DNA of 3,767 bases, from NCBI RefSeq assembly GCF_003334815.1, contig NZ_QOWO01000080.1, one strand, 5' to 3'. Below are positions 1 to 3,767 of the stretch, piece by piece. The position numbers and the translations under genes are program-made. The first letter of the stretch is position 1. Each line of letters starts with the position of its first letter. This DNA comes from Escherichia coli. GTDB lineage: Bacteria > Pseudomonadota > Gammaproteobacteria > Enterobacterales > Enterobacteriaceae. The notes beneath the pieces were generated by a model that did no database searches, was not told the DNA's origin, and saw nothing but the letters and a program-made list of their open reading frames with translations.

Positions 1-38
1 GGGGTTCCGTGGGCATTTCTGCGATAACACACGCTAAG
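1..38. repeat. Terminal inverted repeat (tnpA-proximal end), 38 bp: GGGGTTCCGTGGGCATTTCTGCGATAACACACGCTAAG
   Basis: It has the outer GGGG and inner ACGCTAAG typical of Tn3-family 38-bp IRs (compare Tn3 GGGG...ACGTTAAG). The tnpA stop codon (minus-strand TAG, plus 34-36) sits inside the IR, as is usual for this family. Its reverse complement matches 3751-3767. Confidence 0.85.
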
Positions 39-3000
39 GAAAAGTGAAGTTCTTTGGATTGAAGCGATTAGTACGAAGTGGCCTGTATCGTTCAAGGGGA
101 TGGTCAATTTCGTTCCACAGGTAATCTCCAGTGAGCGAGATATGACCCCATGGTAGTGGTGATACACTGGACAAGAGCTCTTCCGGTATAATGATCCCCT
201 GGTTGCGAATGTAATCAACAGCCCGACTGAGATAGACCGTGTTCCACAGAATTATTGCATTAACAACAAGGTTGAGGCCCGATGCCCTGTGAGCCATTGT
301 CTCGGCAGCCCTGTTCCGGAATTCGCCCAGTTGGTGAAGAAAAATAGCGCGGGCAAGTGCATGGCGGCTTTCGCCTTTGTTGAGGATTGCGTGTGATCTG
401 CGACGTAACCGAGTGTCAAGCAACCAGTCACAGATAAAAATTGAGCGTTCAATACGTCCCATTTCACGCAGGGCCAGATTGAGCCTGTTTTGTCTCGGAG
501 ATGCTGCCAGCTTTTTCAGTATTACCGATGGTGGTACCAGACCAGCGCCGATCGAGGCCTTAAGCCGCAGAACTTCATCCCAGTGCTGTTCTATTACTTC
601 CATTTTGGCCTTTCCGGCGATCAGGGCATCAAGTGGTTTATATTCCTCTGAGGGTGAAATAACGTACAACCTGCGACTGCCGAGGTTGCGAATACGGGGT
701 ATGAGTCTGTAACCAAAAGAGTGAAACATTGAAAATGTTGTTTCAGTCGCACCGGCTGTATCGGTGGCATGCTCATGAATTACCACAGAACTTTCGTTAT
801 GAAGTAAGCCGTCAAGTACGTAGGGAGCCTCGCTTTCAGAGGCCTGAATCATTCTGGAAAAAAAGGATGCAAAACGGTTCGATAAAAAACCATAAATCGA
901 CGCGCCAGGTCGTTTGCCGTATTTGGCGTTATATTCGAGGCTGGCTTCTCCTCGTCCACCCGCAGGAAAAAACTGCCCGTCCGAGGATGACACATGCCCA
1001 TCCCCCCATATAGCAGCAAAAGGATGTTCCTGTTGCGCATCGACCAGAACTGATGTGGCAGACGCATAGGTTTCAGTGCGTAAATGACGATCCATCATTA
1101 CCATCATCTGGTGAATGGTGACACCCCGGGAACTCTGCGCCATCCGTTCTGCTCCCGCATTCGTCGCATCGGCAAGGATCGCAGCCATAAGTGCAGCTTC
1201 ATCTTCCGCCTGTTCCCCGGTGCGATAATGGGTGAAACAATCAAGAAAACTGGTCCAGCTATGAACTTCTGCCAGCAAACTGGTAATTCTGATGCGTGGT
1301 ACCAGCATGTAGAGTTTACGGCTGAGAGCCTTAATTTTGTCGCTCTCTTCTTCGCGAATCGGAGACACAGACAACCCTCTGCTGGAAAGTTCTGCATCGG
1401 GTATGGCATTCTCCGAAGCAGCTTTTGCCAGCGCTTTCAGTTTTGCGTTGAGTGTGGTGGTTCGCTCAGCCCGCCATTCAGCAAAGTTGTCCGGAATGGC
1501 AAGTCCCAGCCGGGATTCTGCCCGCATCTGCCCGAAAACATGGTGAGGAAGAAGGTAGTCCTCAAAACTACGCCAGGCCCGACTACCATCAACCCATATG
1601 TCACCTGTTTTCAGGCGTTCCCGCAAATGAACGAATACGGCGACTTCCCACGCCTGCAGATCGGTATTTTCTCCATGGATGACACGACGTCGCCATTTAT
1701 GGGACATAAAATCGAGCGGAATTTGTTTGGGTAATTTTCGGCCATGATAGAACGCCTGCAAATACCCAATCGCCAACAAAACGCTATCATCCGGGCGAAA
1801 AGCTCTGAAAGAAAAAGCGCTGAAAATGAGTCGTCCAAGCTTACGTAATGATTTTTGTCGTCCGATAAGTTCATCCAGTTCAGAACAGTGATGGGAAGAT
1901 GCCACCGAAGCTGCAGCCTCCATACTGGCAATCAAACCTTCCCAGCCGAGTGATGCTGTTATTACAGATTCAATATCAGTATTACCGTCACGTGCTGCCA
2001 GGAGAGCCCGTCCCAGCTTAATATGATCCTGAGCTACGACTTCAAGTACTTCAGCGGCTTTCAGACGACGCTCTTTCTGGCTTATCTCTGCTCTGCGCCT
2101 CGTGCTGCCAATCAATTTGCAGAACATATCAATTGCCAGATCTGTAATTGCTGCCTGCTTTTCAATAACAAAGGCTACCAGCGTGGCATGACGGCGTTCG
2201 GATGCCATTCGTTGTATTTCACGCGCATGTAAAACGCGAGAATCCCGGGCAATAATACCGTAACGGTTTACATGAATCCGTTTACGTTGCTCATCGGAGA
2301 TTGCCGCTGTTCGTAATACCTCCAGCCTGGCAATTAACCCCTTAAGATTCTTGAGTTTCACGCCTTCCGGCGCTTCAGCTATCCAGCCTAAAATGCTCTT
2401 TTCTCCGACTCGTTCGGTAAGCAACTGCTCGAGAGCGCTAATGGATGAAGGTTTCAGATCCCTGATGAGTTCCCGATAAGAAAGGCGACGGGCAGCCGCC
2501 CGGCCCGCCATTGCCAGACGGATGAGTTGTGCCGGAGCAGGGGCAAGTAACTTCTGGTCCTTCAGCTTATTGATAACTGCTCTGGTGATCGGCAGTCCTT
2601 TTTCGGTGGTTGCTGCTTCGCGTGTAGCCGCGATAATGAGCATTCTGTAATCGCTACTCCGGACGGAACGAAGCTCCAAAGCCGAAACTATTTCGCGGGC
2701 ATGTTCCCGGCGGGTTTCCTCACGTTGTGCGTAAAGTGTAAAAACAGCAGGGTCAATATCCAGTTGTTCCGCAACAACGGTGATAACAGCCTCCGGGGGA
2801 ATCTCTCCTGCACGCAGTGTACGACCGAGATCACGGACAAGTGCAAGCTGAATGGCAAAACCCAGACGGTTATGAGATCGACGATGAGTTCTGGCGAATG
2901 CAATATCCTCGCAGGAGAGCGAAAACCGGGGAAGTGCATCCTCATAAAGTTCAGGTAATCCAAAAAGCGTATCGTACGATTTAGCGTCGAGAAATGACAT
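34..3000 (-). CDS. tnpA: Tn3-family DDE transposase TnpA, 988 aa
   Basis: A single uninterrupted 2967-nt ORF ending inside the terminal IR. The N-terminus carries the NRLGFAIQL motif typical of Tn3-family TnpA. Candidate DDE triad: D674 (SSSDGQ, nt 979-981), D747 (HEHATDTAG, nt 760-762), E877 (NKGES, nt 370-372), with spacing 73/130 aa close to what I recall for Tn4430 TnpA. The ATG at 3000-2998 overlaps the tnpR 3' end. Confidence 0.95.
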   Translation of the reverse strand: MSFLDAKSYDTLFGLPELYEDALPRFSLSCEDIAFARTHRRSHNRLGFAIQLALVRDLGRTLRAGEIPPEAVITVVAEQLDIDPAVFTLYAQREETRREHAREIVSALELRSVRSSDYRMLIIAATREAATTEKGLPITRAVINKLKDQKLLAPAPAQLIRLAMAGRAAARRLSYRELIRDLKPSSISALEQLLTERVGEKSILGWIAEAPEGVKLKNLKGLIARLEVLRTAAISDEQRKRIHVNRYGIIARDSRVLHAREIQRMASERRHATLVAFVIEKQAAITDLAIDMFCKLIGSTRRRAEISQKERRLKAAEVLEVVAQDHIKLGRALLAARDGNTDIESVITASLGWEGLIASMEAAASVASSHHCSELDELIGRQKSLRKLGRLIFSAFSFRAFRPDDSVLLAIGYLQAFYHGRKLPKQIPLDFMSHKWRRRVIHGENTDLQAWEVAVFVHLRERLKTGDIWVDGSRAWRSFEDYLLPHHVFGQMRAESRLGLAIPDNFAEWRAERTTTLNAKLKALAKAASENAIPDAELSSRGLSVSPIREEESDKIKALSRKLYMLVPRIRITSLLAEVHSWTSFLDCFTHYRTGEQAEDEAALMAAILADATNAGAERMAQSSRGVTIHQMMVMMDRHLRTETYASATSVLVDAQQEHPFAAIWGDGHVSSSDGQFFPAGGRGEASLEYNAKYGKRPGASIYGFLSNRFASFFSRMIQASESEAPYVLDGLLHNESSVVIHEHATDTAGATETTFSMFHSFGYRLIPRIRNLGSRRLYVISPSEEYKPLDALIAGKAKMEVIEQHWDEVLRLKASIGAGLVPPSVILKKLAASPRQNRLNLALREMGRIERSIFICDWLLDTRLRRRSHAILNKGESRHALARAIFLHQLGEFRNRAAETMAHRASGLNLVVNAIILWNTVYLSRAVDYIRNQGIIIPEELLSSVSPLPWGHISLTGDYLWNEIDHPLERYRPLRTNRFNPKNFTFP

Positions 3001-3604
3001 TGCTCTGATCCGTTGTCAGATTACGCCCCCCAGGTCCGGCCCAGCCAATTCGTCGTAGAGTATCGGTGAGCGTTGAGCGTGGCACACTGAATGCGCGACA
3101 TACTGACGCTTTACTGGCACCTCCTTCCAGAGCTGCGAGGATTTGATCAACCTTTTCAGCATCTATCGCCGGTGGCCTTCCGCCTTTTCTCCCCCGCCGG
3201 AGAGCAGCAGCCAGACCAGCATTAACGCGTTCTGTGATAAGTGTTCTTTCGTACTCCGCGAGCGTGCCAAAAAGGTTAAAGAGGAACGAGCCGTGTGGCG
3301 TTGTTGTATCAATAGATTCAGTCAATGATCGGAAAGCAATACCACGAATTTTCAGGTCTTCAATAATTCGGAGCAAATGTGAGAGTGAACGACCAAGTCG
3401 ATCCAGTTTCCAGACTATCAGTACATCACCTTCGCGAAGTTCAGCGAGACAGGACTTAAGTCCCGGGCGATTATCACGAGCACCTGAAGCATGATCCTGA
3501 TGTAAATGCCGGGGATCCACTCCAGCAGCAATCAACGCATCACGCTGCAAAGAAACTGACTGACGTTCATCATTGCTTGATACCCGCATATAACCAATCA
3601 ACAT
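2981..3604 (-). CDS. tnpR: Serine recombinase (transposon resolvase TnpR) of the Gin/Hin/Pin invertase-like type, 207 aa from the ATG at 3604. The ORF track extends to a TTG at 3613, which is probably an overcall.
   Basis: The N-terminus MLIGYMRVSSND...LQRDAL closely matches Gin (MLIGYVRVSTNDQ...LQRNAL), placing the catalytic Ser at residue 9 (nt 3580-3578). Conserved blocks VWKLDRLGRS, FRSLTESIDTT and ERV-AGLAAA-RGR-GGRP are present, followed by a C-terminal HTH (RSTLTDTLRR). An AAGG Shine-Dalgarno sits about 10 nt upstream of the ATG at 3604. The stop is TAA at 2983-2981. Confidence 0.9.
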   Translation of the reverse strand: MLIGYMRVSSNDERQSVSLQRDALIAAGVDPRHLHQDHASGARDNRPGLKSCLAELREGDVLIVWKLDRLGRSLSHLLRIIEDLKIRGIAFRSLTESIDTTTPHGSFLFNLFGTLAEYERTLITERVNAGLAAALRRGRKGGRPPAIDAEKVDQILAALEGGASKASVCRAFSVPRSTLTDTLRRIGWAGPGGRNLTTDQSNVISRR

Positions 3605-3750
3605 GTACGACAAACCTTAAAATTGAAGTTTCCGTACAGTTTCTCATTCCGACAGGGTTTGTCACGCAAAAAATCACAGATTTATGGATTCAATTTTCTT
3701 CAACTGCAGGACCTGACGGAAAACAAGTGATTTCCGTCAGGGAGAAATCG
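3605..3750. promoter_or_regulatory. Putative res (resolution) site with embedded tnpR promoter/operator
   Basis: A ~146-bp non-coding region lies between the tnpR start and the right IR, where res sits in Tn21-type elements. It contains a perfect dyad at 3713-3740 and repeated TTCCG(N)CAG half-site-like motifs at 3630-3638 and 3649-3657. No clear sigma70 -35/-10 pair could be assigned. Confidence 0.55.
3713..3740. repeat. Perfect 28-bp dyad CTGACGGAAA-acaagtga-TTTCCGTCAG; candidate res subsite I (crossover site)
   Basis: 10-bp perfect inverted arms flank an 8-bp spacer. The 28-bp length equals a typical serine-resolvase site I. It lies at the tnpR-distal end of the res region, where site I sits in Tn21-type res. 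Confidence 0.5.
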
Positions 3751-3767
3751 CTTAGCGGGTGTTATCG
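3751..3767. repeat. Terminal inverted repeat (res-proximal end), truncated by the window; the inner 17 bp are visible
   Basis: The reverse complement of 3751-3767 is CGATAACACCCGCTAAG, against IR positions 22-38 CGATAACACACGCTAAG (16/17 identical). Orientation and position are right for the opposite transposon end. Confidence 0.8.

What the first reader, a model, noticed from the sequence alone, without database searches (positions are those of the whole stretch)
2981..3604. The transposon recombinase is invertase-like (Gin/Hin/Pin/Cin type) with a C-terminal extension
The N-terminus and catalytic core align much better with DNA invertases (MLIGYxRVS, VWKLDRLGRS, GGRP hinge) than with canonical Tn3 or gamma-delta resolvases (MRxFGYARVS). 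Beyond the HTH there is an extra tail of about 22 aa (IGWAGPGGRNLTTDQSNVISRR), and its coding sequence overlaps the tnpA start. Invertase-type enzymes normally need an enhancer and Fis and favour inversion, so how this protein is constrained to resolution between directly repeated res sites is mechanistically interesting. The tail may be a functional domain or simply a consequence of the gene overlap.
Basis: partly seen in the sequence, partly recalled or inferred. Interest (0 to 1): 0.55.

Follow-up and report, generated by a model that had tools for sequence, protein, structure and literature searches.

The report
Invertase-like resolvase of a small Tn3-family transposon
The gene encodes the cointegrate resolvase of a 3.8-kb cryptic Tn3-family transposon common on E. 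coli and Salmonella plasmids; its catalytic half does resemble phage DNA invertases, but this is typical of a large, already described group of transposon resolvases, so the finding is real but ordinary.

Summary
Window 3604..2981 (minus strand) encodes a 207-aa serine recombinase with MLIGYMRVS, VWKLDRLGRS and GGRP. It has 21-22 residues beyond the HTH, and its last 20 nt overlap the tnpA start.

It scores far better against Gin (173 bits) than against gamma-delta or Tn3 resolvase (88-95 bits). The invertase likeness is confined to the catalytic domain and helix E: 59% identity to invertases against 39% to Tn3/gamma-delta. The DNA-binding domain is no closer to invertases than to Tn3.

In a tree the protein is not an invertase. 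It sits in a 100%-supported clade of tnpR-tnpA Tn3-family resolvases, sister to TniR of Tn402/Tn5053.

Upstream of tnpR lies a res region whose geometry is conserved in seven relatives: a 28-bp crossover dyad, a conserved middle block and a 33-bp dyad. It matches the res predicted for Tn5501. There is only one crossover site and no invertible segment. Two of the five copies whose ends I checked carry 5-bp target duplications.

In the tail, R-x-G-W-x-G is conserved. The last 15 residues vary in sequence and length and are predicted disordered.

Resolvases closely related to invertases were described in 1998 (ISXc5). A paper whose title I confirmed reports that a DNA-binding-domain swap turns Gin into a resolvase. 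Interest is low.

The parts
1..38 (.). Left terminal inverted repeat (IRL) of the transposon, GGGGTTCCGTGGGCATTTCTGCGATAACACACGCTAAG
   Evidence: It matches the reverse complement of the right end at 36 of 38 positions in the full copy L001. Two copies are flanked by 5-bp target duplications, TATCT and AAAAA.
34..3000 (-). tnpA, Tn3-family transposase, 988 aa
   Evidence: NCBIfam NF033527 transpos_Tn3 scores 922 bits against a cut-off of 500. RefSeq annotates it as WP_000008826.1, Tn3 family transposase.
2981..3604 (-). tnpR, small serine recombinase (resolvase), 207 aa. Catalytic domain residues 1-100, helix E 103-136, GGRP arm 141-144, three-helix HTH 149-186, tail 187-207.
   Evidence: Pfam Resolvase plus HTH_7. 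PDB matches. AlphaFold2 secondary structure. Tree placement.
2981..3000 (-). 20-nt overlap of the tnpR 3' end (codons for N-V-I-S-R-R and the stop) with the tnpA start codon and its first codons
   Evidence: Coordinates. The overlap is not conserved in relatives: 14 nt in L007, 17 nt in L009, 4 nt in L010, and gaps of 15-17 nt in L003, L005, L006, L024 and L025.
3029..3049 (-). Codons for the conserved post-HTH motif R185-I-G187-W188-A-G190-P
   Evidence: In 64 family members R185 is 98% conserved, G187 97%, W188 97% and G190 92%. The pLDDT block for residues 181-190 averages 81.
2984..3028 (-). Codons for G192 and the variable distal tail (residues 193-207)
   Evidence: Column entropy is at least 3 bits at nearly all positions from 193 onward. 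The length after GW ranges from 9 to 37 aa among relatives. pLDDT is below 50 for residues 194-207.
3605..3637 (-). tnpR-proximal res subsite (candidate site III): a 33-bp dyad, GTACGGAAAC-N13-GTTTGTCGTAC, abutting the tnpR ATG
   Evidence: It is the second-best conserved dyad across 7 relatives: 47 of 63 outer-arm pairs summed over them. Columns are conserved in the ATG-anchored alignment. It matches 19 of 25 positions of the RIII predicted for Tn5501 (counted by eye).
3644..3668 (-). Conserved middle block of res (candidate site II), GCGTGACAAACCCTGTCGGAATG region
   Evidence: The columns GacAAAC.cTGTCGga are conserved at a fixed distance from the ATG in 7 relatives. The dyad symmetry is weak (33 of 63), so the subsite boundaries are inferred.
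3713..3740 (-). res site I (inferred crossover site): CTGACGGAAATCA-CT-TGTTTTCCGTCAG, 12-bp half-sites around a central CT
   Evidence: It occurs once in the window, with none expected by chance. It forms a 14-nt inverted repeat with a 2-nt gap. In six other relative loci representing four distinct relatives, the best 12-2-12 dyad is centred at the same place, 122 nt upstream of the ATG. It matches 23 of 28 positions of the Tn5501 RI (counted by eye). The cleavage position is inferred, not shown.
3751..3767 (.). Inner 17 bp of the right terminal inverted repeat (IRR). The window stops here and the outer 21 bp are missing.
   Evidence: The full copy L001 continues with CGCAGAAATTCCCACGGAACCCC.

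Best explanation
The ORF is tnpR, the cointegrate resolvase of a minimal 3,788-bp Tn3-family transposon. The element reads IRL, tnpA, tnpR, res, IRR, with tnpR and tnpA both transcribed away from res.

Inferred mechanism, by analogy with other small serine resolvases: TnpR dimers bind a res of about 136 bp lying between IRR and tnpR. This res has a 28-bp crossover dyad (site I) farthest from the gene, and two accessory regions next to and overlapping the tnpR start. In a cointegrate the two directly repeated res sites would synapse through the accessory sites. That synapse, rather than Fis and an enhancer, would license the site-I-bound subunits to cut at the central dinucleotide, rotate and rejoin, so only deletion between direct repeats occurs. 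Binding at the proximal sites probably also represses the tnpR-tnpA operon.

The invertase-like catalytic domain reflects common descent. Invertases, TniR-type resolvases and this Tn5501-like group form one branch of the small serine recombinases. The DNA-binding domain and the res are family-specific.

Of the C-terminal extension, the conserved R-x-G-W-x-G just after helix 3 is probably part of the DNA-binding domain. The last ~15 residues look like a disordered, freely drifting appendage. Their length depends on where the stop codon falls relative to the tnpA start, and the overlap may allow translational coupling.

Shown here: gene identity, clade placement, conserved res geometry, the single site I, target duplications, and the tail conservation pattern. 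Inferred: binding, cleavage position, synapse topology, autoregulation and coupling.
For: - Domains and matches: Pfam Resolvase plus HTH_7; Gin 173 bits against gamma-delta/Tn3 88-95 bits.
- Neighbouring gene: Tn3-family transposase at 922 bits.
- Element structure and mobility: a full element with 38-bp IRs, and 5-bp target duplications in two of the five copies whose ends I checked. It has up to 9 places per E. coli genome and is present in 363 of 5,426 genomes.
- Tree: a 100% clade with tnpR-tnpA resolvases from Salmonella, Sphingomonas, Pseudomonas and Xanthomonas; sister to TniR at 89.5%; invertases form a separate 100% clade.
- Domain-wise identity: catalytic domain 59% to invertases against 39% to Tn3/gamma-delta; DNA-binding domain 26-30% against 23-28%.
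- Gene context: relatives at 64-88% identity sit immediately upstream of a Tn3-family tnpA.
- res: site I is unique in the window. Its centre lies exactly 122 nt from the ATG in the window and in six other relative loci that represent four distinct relatives. Blocks are conserved in an ungapped ATG-anchored alignment.
- Published res predictions: the window res resembles the RI and RIII predicted for Tn5501 of the Tn3000 subgroup.
- Tail: conservation and length statistics; pLDDT below 50 for residues 194-207.
- Literature: a resolvase subfamily closely related to invertases, and a Gin-to-resolvase domain swap (titles confirmed).
Against: - No biochemical data exist for this protein or this res. 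Subsite boundaries, especially for the middle block, rest on conservation only; its dyad symmetry is weak.
- The consensus scan found no sigma-70 promoter in the res region, so autoregulation is unsupported here.
- Residues of the gamma-delta 2-3' interface (R2, R32, K54, E56, recalled from memory) are not conserved. The aligned window residues are absent, H33, E55 and R57 (alignment). How accessory-site dimers would contact site-I dimers therefore cannot be read from the sequence.
- Three of the five checked copies lack matching target duplications.
- RecA-dependent resolution could also produce simple insertions.
- The NJ support for the wider branch that joins invertases to these resolvases is only 72%.
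Confidence: 0.85

Rival explanations
1. The protein is a true Fis/enhancer-dependent DNA invertase captured by the transposon, and it flips a DNA segment rather than resolving cointegrates.
For: It is 59% identical to Gin, Cin and PinE in the catalytic domain and has the same N-terminus, MLIGY-RVS.
Against: - Only one crossover-type site exists in the 3.8-kb element, even allowing 3 mismatches, so there is no invertible segment.
- The protein lies outside the 100%-supported invertase clade.
- The DNA-binding domain is not invertase-like.
- In cin the enhancer lies in nt 19-90 of the gene. The equivalent stretch of tnpR carries a 6-nt insertion between the two candidate Fis positions, and its distal position is GC-rich. 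This is a weak test.
- Relatives consistently sit as tnpR-tnpA with a conserved multi-part upstream region.
Confidence: 0.03
2. The whole 22-residue tail is a functional module. It might contact TnpA, link resolution to transposition, or contact a host factor, and it would have been selected as such.
For: Every one of 62 relatives with the GW motif has some tail, 9-37 aa after GW. The first part, R-x-G-W-x-G, is 92-98% conserved. TniR-type relatives also carry a conserved post-HTH segment, PKGELR.
Against: Residues 193-207 have near-maximal column entropy and variable length and are predicted disordered. The overlap with tnpA is not conserved, ranging from a 20-nt overlap to a 17-nt gap. The 88%-identical Salmonella protein already differs at most distal tail positions.
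Confidence: 0.1
3. The tail is an annotation or sequencing artefact, such as a frameshift or a mis-called stop.
For: The tail overlaps the next gene, and its distal part is not conserved.
Against: The exact 207-aa sequence is on record on at least 1,000 contigs, and its 90% cluster has 341 members. RefSeq calls the same ORF in many independent complete plasmids. Relatives across several phyla all extend beyond the HTH.
Confidence: 0.02
4. In present-day hosts the module works mainly as a plasmid multimer-resolution and stability system, and cointegrate resolution is secondary.
For: The element is overwhelmingly plasmid-borne: 373 plasmid records, and 340 of 522 places in E. coli lie on plasmids. 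A paper on the Tn3 family reports that the TnpR of the related Tn6231 enhances plasmid stability. An 86%-identical fragment (res accessory region plus IRR; its site I is disrupted) persists next to parG-parA in IncX1 plasmids.
Against: This is not exclusive with the main explanation. The gene is tightly linked to tnpA inside the IRs, and target-duplicated simple insertions are seen.
Confidence: 0.25

Closest known systems
TnpR/res of Tn5501 and Tn4662-type transposons (Tn3000 subgroup of the Tn3 family)
   Same: The layout is the same: res, then tnpR, then tnpA, collinear, with site I distal and site III next to tnpR. The published res predictions match the window. RI CCTGTCGGAAAACATTTGTTTTTCGACA against CCTGACGGAAATCACTTGTTTTCCGTCA is 23 of 28. 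RIII TACGGAAACCTCGTCTTAATGGTTT against TACGGAAACTTCAATTTTAAGGTTT is 19 of 25 (matches counted by eye). Pseudomonas and Xanthomonas relatives with this layout are 64-65% identical and share the clade at 100%.
   Different: The window element carries no toxin-antitoxin or other passenger genes and is only 3,788 bp. Its hosts are E. coli and Salmonella. I did not have the Tn5501 TnpR sequence itself, so the protein-level relation is inferred from res similarity and from unnamed Pseudomonas and Xanthomonas relatives.
ISXc5 (TnXc5) resolvase, Liu et al. [quoted passage not shown]
   Same: It is a Tn3-family resolvase whose sequence is invertase-like, acting at a three-subsite res defined by footprinting. 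Its site I, GTTCAATAAAACGatCGTTTTTATGAAC, has the same A-tract/2-bp-core architecture.
   Different: Resolvases of the related Tn5563 and TIME-RES elements are 309 aa, against 207 aa here. In that group tnpR and tnpA are divergent and the group belongs to the Tn3 subgroup. The half-site sequence differs.
TniR (TniC) resolvase of Tn402/Tn5053-family transposons
   Same: It is the sister clade at 89.5% bootstrap, 51-53% identical overall and 63-65% in the catalytic domain. It shares the two 2-residue insertions relative to invertases, has a similar length (about 207 aa), and also carries a conserved post-HTH extension.
   Different: It is associated with tniABQ rather than a Tn3-type tnpA. The DNA-binding domain is only 24-28% identical. 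The tail motif is PKGELR rather than GW-G.
Fis/enhancer-dependent DNA invertases Gin (Mu), Cin (P1) and PinE (e14)
   Same: They are 48-50% identical overall and 59% in the catalytic domain. They share the MLIGY-RVS start, VWKLDRLGRS and the GGR arm. They too have some residues after helix 3.
   Different: They form a separate clade. Their DNA-binding domain is only 26-30% identical. There is no second inverted site and no invertible segment in the window. The window gene sits next to a transposase. No convincing enhancer was found.
Gamma-delta and Tn3 resolvases
   Same: They have the same role and the same overall logic: a small serine recombinase with a multi-subsite res, site I being 28 bp.
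   Different: They are only 32-33% identical. The subsite sequences and spacings differ. The 2-3' interface residues are not conserved.

Membership tests
Small serine recombinases (resolvase/invertase family) | N-terminal resolvase catalytic domain with the nucleophilic serine in the Y-x-R-V-S motif | tested here: met
   Pfam PF00239 E 7.5e-43 over residues 3-139. S9 lies in GYMRVS, and S9, R7, D68 and R69 are invariant in 72 aligned sequences.
Small serine recombinases (resolvase/invertase family) | Long helix E, a Gly-Arg minor-groove arm and a C-terminal three-helix HTH | tested here: met
   The AlphaFold2 model has helices at 103-136, 149-160, 165-172 and 176-186. G141, G142 and R143 are invariant. 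Pfam HTH_7 E 3.5e-5.
Tn3-family TnpR/res cointegrate-resolution module | The gene lies next to a Tn3-family transposase gene inside an element bounded by ~38-bp inverted repeats that makes 5-bp target duplications | tested here: met
   tnpA scores 922 bits to NF033527. The IRs match at 36 of 38. Target duplications TATCT and AAAAA are seen in two copies.
Tn3-family TnpR/res cointegrate-resolution module | A multi-subsite res directly upstream of tnpR, with the crossover site farthest from the gene | tested here: met
   Site I lies at 3713-3740, a conserved block at 3644-3668 and a proximal dyad at 3605-3637. Their positions relative to the ATG are fixed in 7 relatives. They resemble the res predicted for Tn5501. 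Protein binding was not tested.
Tn3-family TnpR/res cointegrate-resolution module | Resolution of directly repeated res sites without host factors | not testable with these tools
   This needs an in vivo or in vitro recombination assay.
Fis/enhancer-dependent DNA invertases (Gin/Hin/Cin/Pin) | Falls inside the invertase clade | tested here: not met
   Gin, Cin and PinE form a 100% clade that excludes the window protein. The window protein groups with transposon resolvases at 100% and 89.5%. Hin was not included, because my recalled sequence failed the exact look-up.
Fis/enhancer-dependent DNA invertases (Gin/Hin/Cin/Pin) | Two inverted crossover sites flanking an invertible segment next to the gene | tested here: not met
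   A single site I is found in the window at up to 3 mismatches. All three ACGGAAA cores lie within res.
Fis/enhancer-dependent DNA invertases (Gin/Hin/Cin/Pin) | A recombinational enhancer with two Fis sites 48 bp apart inside the 5' part of the recombinase gene | tested here: inconclusive
   The cin enhancer is annotated at nt 19-90 of cin. A degenerate Fis consensus, recalled from memory, hits everywhere and does not discriminate. At the homologous positions tnpR has a 6-nt insertion and a GC-rich distal site, which argues against an enhancer but does not exclude one.
ISXc5/Tn5044-type long resolvases | A C-terminal extension of about 100 residues (protein about 309 aa) | tested here: not met
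   The protein is 207 aa, with 21 residues after helix 3.

The most novel reading that the evidence does not exclude
The conserved R-x-G-W-x-G segment just after the recognition helix may be a family-specific extra contact. It could be a C-terminal arm reaching into the DNA groove at the outer end of each half-site, comparable to the C-terminal tail of the Hin DNA-binding domain as I recall it. Alternatively it could be a surface that joins accessory-site dimers in the synapse, in place of the non-conserved 2-3' interface. A related possibility is that the freely varying central dinucleotide of site I (CT, CC, CA, TG, GG, TC in relatives) keeps co-resident related transposons from recombining with one another at res.
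Probability: 0.2. Interest if true: 0.35.

Novelty: new member of a known kind. Interest (0 to 1): 0.15.

Why it matters
It matters little beyond annotation. The result gives a clean description of a very common cryptic transposon of E. coli and Salmonella plasmids: 3,788 bp, 38-bp IRs, a res map, and tnpR and tnpA with a 20-nt overlap. RefSeq labels its recombinase only 'recombinase family protein'. It also shows that automatic labels such as 'DNA invertase Pin-like' or 'hin' on such genes should not be read as evidence for invertible DNA. The conserved res geometry (site I centred 122 nt from the ATG) could help res annotation in this subgroup. Because res sites are hot spots for recombination and for Tn402/Tn5053 insertion, the map has some practical use in plasmid epidemiology.

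Tried and rejected
1. Fis and enhancer test. A degenerate 15-bp Fis consensus recalled from memory gave dozens of hits in cin, pinE and tnpR alike, so it cannot decide anything. Only the indel argument survives.

2. The sigma-70 promoter scan of 2900-3767 found nothing. The Rfam scan of the window found nothing.

3. Naming the element. Literature searches for the two RefSeq protein accessions gave no paper. Tn5403 and ISEc63 were guesses from memory. Papers mention both, but I could not link either to this sequence, so I give no name.

4. My recalled Hin sequence was not found by exact look-up, so I left it out of the tree. The Tn3, gamma-delta, Tn21 and Gin sequences were confirmed exactly there.

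5. The gamma-delta 2-3' interface residues do not map onto conserved equivalents, so no inference was drawn from them.

6. Non-palindromic central dinucleotides were seen in all the site I variants examined. At about 0.75 to the power 7, roughly 0.13, this is not significant, so I make no claim.

7. A clean dyad for the middle res block was sought and not found (33 of 63). It is reported as a conserved block only.

Full report
**What is in the window**

On the minus strand the window holds an intergenic region of about 146 bp (3605-3750), a 207-aa ORF (3604..2981) and a 988-aa ORF (3000..34). The large ORF is a Tn3-family transposase: NCBIfam NF033527 scores 922 bits against a cut-off of 500. 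The small ORF has Pfam Resolvase (residues 3-139, E 7.5e-43) and HTH_7 (142-179). Positions 1-38 are a terminal inverted repeat. Positions 3751-3767 are the inner part of its partner.

A full copy on an E. coli IncF plasmid shows that the element is 3,788 bp with 38-bp IRs matching at 36 of 38. The window therefore lacks the last 21 bp. The element is common: 373 plasmid records, and 363 of 5,426 complete E. coli genomes with up to 9 places per genome. Two of the five copies whose ends I checked are flanked by 5-bp target duplications, TATCT and AAAAA, as expected for Tn3-family simple insertions. RefSeq annotates the two genes as 'recombinase family protein' (WP_000904945.1) and 'Tn3 family transposase' (WP_000008826.1).

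**The observation**

All the quoted motifs are present, and the coordinates and the 20-nt overlap with tnpA are correct. The alternative TTG start at 3613 is not supported, because relatives and invertases all begin MLIGY or MLVGY.

Against solved structures the best matches are Gin at 172.8 and 170.9 bits. Gamma-delta and Tn3 resolvases follow at 88-95 bits. Identity is about 52% to Cin and 51% to Gin by tblastn. In a joint alignment it is 48-50% to Gin, Cin and PinE, against 32-35% to Tn3, gamma-delta and Tn21 resolvases. Cin and PinE were taken from annotated records.

**What kind of recombinase it is**

I built a neighbour-joining tree with 200 bootstraps on 187 trimmed columns.
- The window protein sits in a 100% clade with four other resolvases that lie directly upstream of a Tn3-family tnpA. 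These come from Salmonella (88% identity), Sphingomonas (77%), a Pseudomonas mer transposon (65%) and a Xanthomonas plasmid (64%).
- This clade is sister, at 89.5%, to TniR of Tn402/Tn5053-type elements and a Klebsiella Tn3-type relative.
- Gin, Cin and PinE form their own 100% clade.
- All of these together exclude Tn3/gamma-delta and Tn21, with only 72% support.

But it is not a member of the invertase group. Its nearest relatives are transposon resolvases.

The likeness is also domain-specific.

| Region | Identity to Gin/Cin/Pin | Identity to Tn3/gamma-delta |
|---|---|---|
| Catalytic domain (1-100) | 59% | 39% |
| Helix E | 52-55% | 27-30% |
| DNA-binding domain (141-186) | 26-30% | 23-26% (Tn21: 28%) |

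The window clade and the TniR clade also share two 2-residue insertions that invertases lack.

The family is very large. At least 7,900 database proteins match at E below 1e-20. Sampled relatives at 75-88% identity are mostly in tnpR-tnpA pairs. Two of them lie next to Tn5053/Tn402-type tni genes instead.

**The recombination site**

The minus-strand sequence CTGACGGAAATCA-CT-TGTTTTCCGTCAG (3713-3740) is a near-perfect dyad. It occurs only once in the window, even allowing 3 mismatches, and lies 10 bp inside IRR.

In six other relative loci, representing four distinct relatives, the best 12-2-12 dyad upstream of tnpR is centred at the same place, 122 nt before the ATG. The half-site consensus is roughly T-G/A-A-C-G-N-N-A-A-A-C-A, and the central dinucleotide varies (CT, CC, CA, TG, GG). 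A seventh relative, L005, has the same site by eye, with TC at its centre.

An ungapped alignment anchored on the ATG shows three regions:
- a non-conserved spacer from -109 to -68;
- a strongly conserved block from -64 to -40 (window 3644-3668);
- a 33-bp dyad from -33 to -1 (window 3605-3637, GTACGGAAAC-N13-GTTTGTCGTAC). This is the second-best conserved dyad in the region.

These sequences resemble the RI and RIII predicted for Tn5501 of the Tn3000 subgroup by Lima-Mendez et al., at 23 of 28 and 19 of 25 positions counted by eye. That paper describes the same layout, with site I distal and site III next to tnpR. The window therefore carries a res with the usual logic of Tn3-family resolution sites. 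The middle subsite is defined only by conservation, since its dyad symmetry is weak.

**How it most likely works**

The window shows a serine recombinase, a single crossover-type dyad, conserved accessory DNA between that dyad and the gene, a neighbouring transposase, and target-duplicated insertions.

The mechanism follows from established knowledge of small serine recombinases. Two res sites in a cointegrate synapse through accessory-site-bound dimers. This activates the site I dimers, which cut with a 2-nt stagger at the centre (here CT/AG, 3726-3727), rotate and religate.

The answer is that selectivity lies in the sites and the DNA-binding domain, not in the catalytic domain. Here the DNA-binding domain and the sites are family-specific and resolvase-like in organisation. 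[quoted passage not shown] 2000).

I could not decide the enhancer question rigorously. In P1 the enhancer is annotated at nt 19-90 of cin. My Fis consensus scan did not discriminate. At the homologous positions tnpR has a 6-nt insertion between the two candidate sites, and its distal site is GC-rich.

**The tail**

AlphaFold2, run with a 72-sequence alignment (mean pLDDT 81.9), ends the third HTH helix at residue 186. Residues 194-207 have pLDDT below 50.

Among 64 family members R185 is 98% conserved, G187 97%, W188 97% and G190 92%. Positions 193-207 have entropies of about 3 bits or more at nearly all positions. The length after GW ranges from 9 to 37 residues. Two of the 64 lack the GW motif.

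The tnpR-tnpA junction is not conserved either. The overlap is 20 nt here, 14 nt in L007, 17 nt in L009 and 4 nt in L010. In L003, L005, L006, L024 and L025 there is a gap of 15-17 nt instead.

The tail is therefore neither an annotation error nor a folded extra domain. The exact protein is on at least 1,000 contigs. It consists of a short conserved motif that probably belongs to the DNA-binding domain, followed by a disordered stretch whose length depends on where the stop codon falls. Extensions after helix 3 are common in this branch: Gin has about 13 residues there, and TniR has a conserved PKGELR segment.

**Comparison with what is known, and novelty**

The closest described systems are the Tn5501/Tn4662-type modules of the Tn3000 subgroup, then TniR, then the ISXc5 group, then the invertases. 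The protein passes the membership tests for a small serine recombinase and for a Tn3-family TnpR/res module. It fails two tests for Fis-dependent invertases (clade and paired inverted sites), and the third test is inconclusive. It also fails the length test for ISXc5-type long resolvases.

I found no paper on this particular element. It is best described as an uncharacterised, ordinary member of a known kind.

**Verdict**

Interest is low (0.15).

The most novel reading left open is that the conserved GW-G segment is a family-specific contact, or that the varying site I centre isolates related transposons from one another. I put this at about 0.2 probability, with modest interest if true.

Noticed in passing
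window 3751-3767; L001 5251-5288: The window stops inside the right inverted repeat, so the outer 21 bp of IRR are missing. The full element is 3,788 bp.
   Followed up: yes
L002 4335-4548 (IncX1 plasmid NZ_CP100668.1); window 3569-3766: A fragment of about 190 bp, 86% identical to the res accessory region, the IRR and the first 36 nt of tnpR, is present in about 160 plasmids (Salmonella, E. coli, Klebsiella). It has no tnpR or tnpA and lies between a P-loop NTPase gene and parG-parA. Its site I is disrupted, reading CTGAAAGAAATCTTCAG. It looks like a relic of a related transposon, or a retained res.
   Followed up: partly
L028 and L029 1594-3872, compared with L027: The same resolvase protein (P0080, 79% identical to the window's) has an intact site I at -122 in L027. 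In L028 and L029, Tn5053/Tn402-type tniA- and tniB-like genes sit directly upstream in place of site I. This is consistent with 'res site hunter' insertion into this res. In L030-L032 a tniQ-tniB-tniA set abuts the 3' end of another relative.
   Followed up: partly
L001 1496-1500 and 5289-5293; L020; L023: Three of five checked copies have no matching 5-bp target duplication (TACTC/AAACA, TACTC/AACAA, TCATA/TTACA). This suggests recombination between copies or adjacent deletions. L001 and L020 share the same insertion site between an HlyD-family gene and an S6 peptidase gene, on plasmids of different species.
   Followed up: partly
window 3726-3727 and the equivalent positions in L007, L005, L010, L024, L027, L030: The central dinucleotide of the inferred crossover site differs among relatives (CT, CC, TC, CA, TG, CC, GG), while the flanking CA/TG and A-tracts are conserved. 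All are non-palindromic, but that is not statistically significant.
   Followed up: partly
L010 3122-3789; L014, L015, L017 upstream of the resolvase genes: VapBC-type toxin-antitoxin pairs sit divergently just upstream of several related resolvase genes in Xanthomonas and Pseudomonas plasmids, as described for Tn3-family transposons. The window element has none.
   Followed up: no
L004 5561-10543: In a Sphingomonas chromosome, the tnpA downstream of an identical tnpR is cut to 455 aa (DUF4158 only). It is followed by a second, oppositely oriented Tn3-family tnpA with its own unrelated resolvase, which points to nested or recombined transposons.
   Followed up: no
window 3609-3616 / 3656-3663 and 3619-3627 / 3689-3697: Two further perfect short inverted repeats lie inside res: GACAAACC/GGTTTGTC, 39 nt apart, and AAAATTGAA/TTCAATTTT, 61 nt apart. 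The first pair corresponds to half-site-like motifs of the middle and proximal subsites. The second is unexplained.
   Followed up: partly
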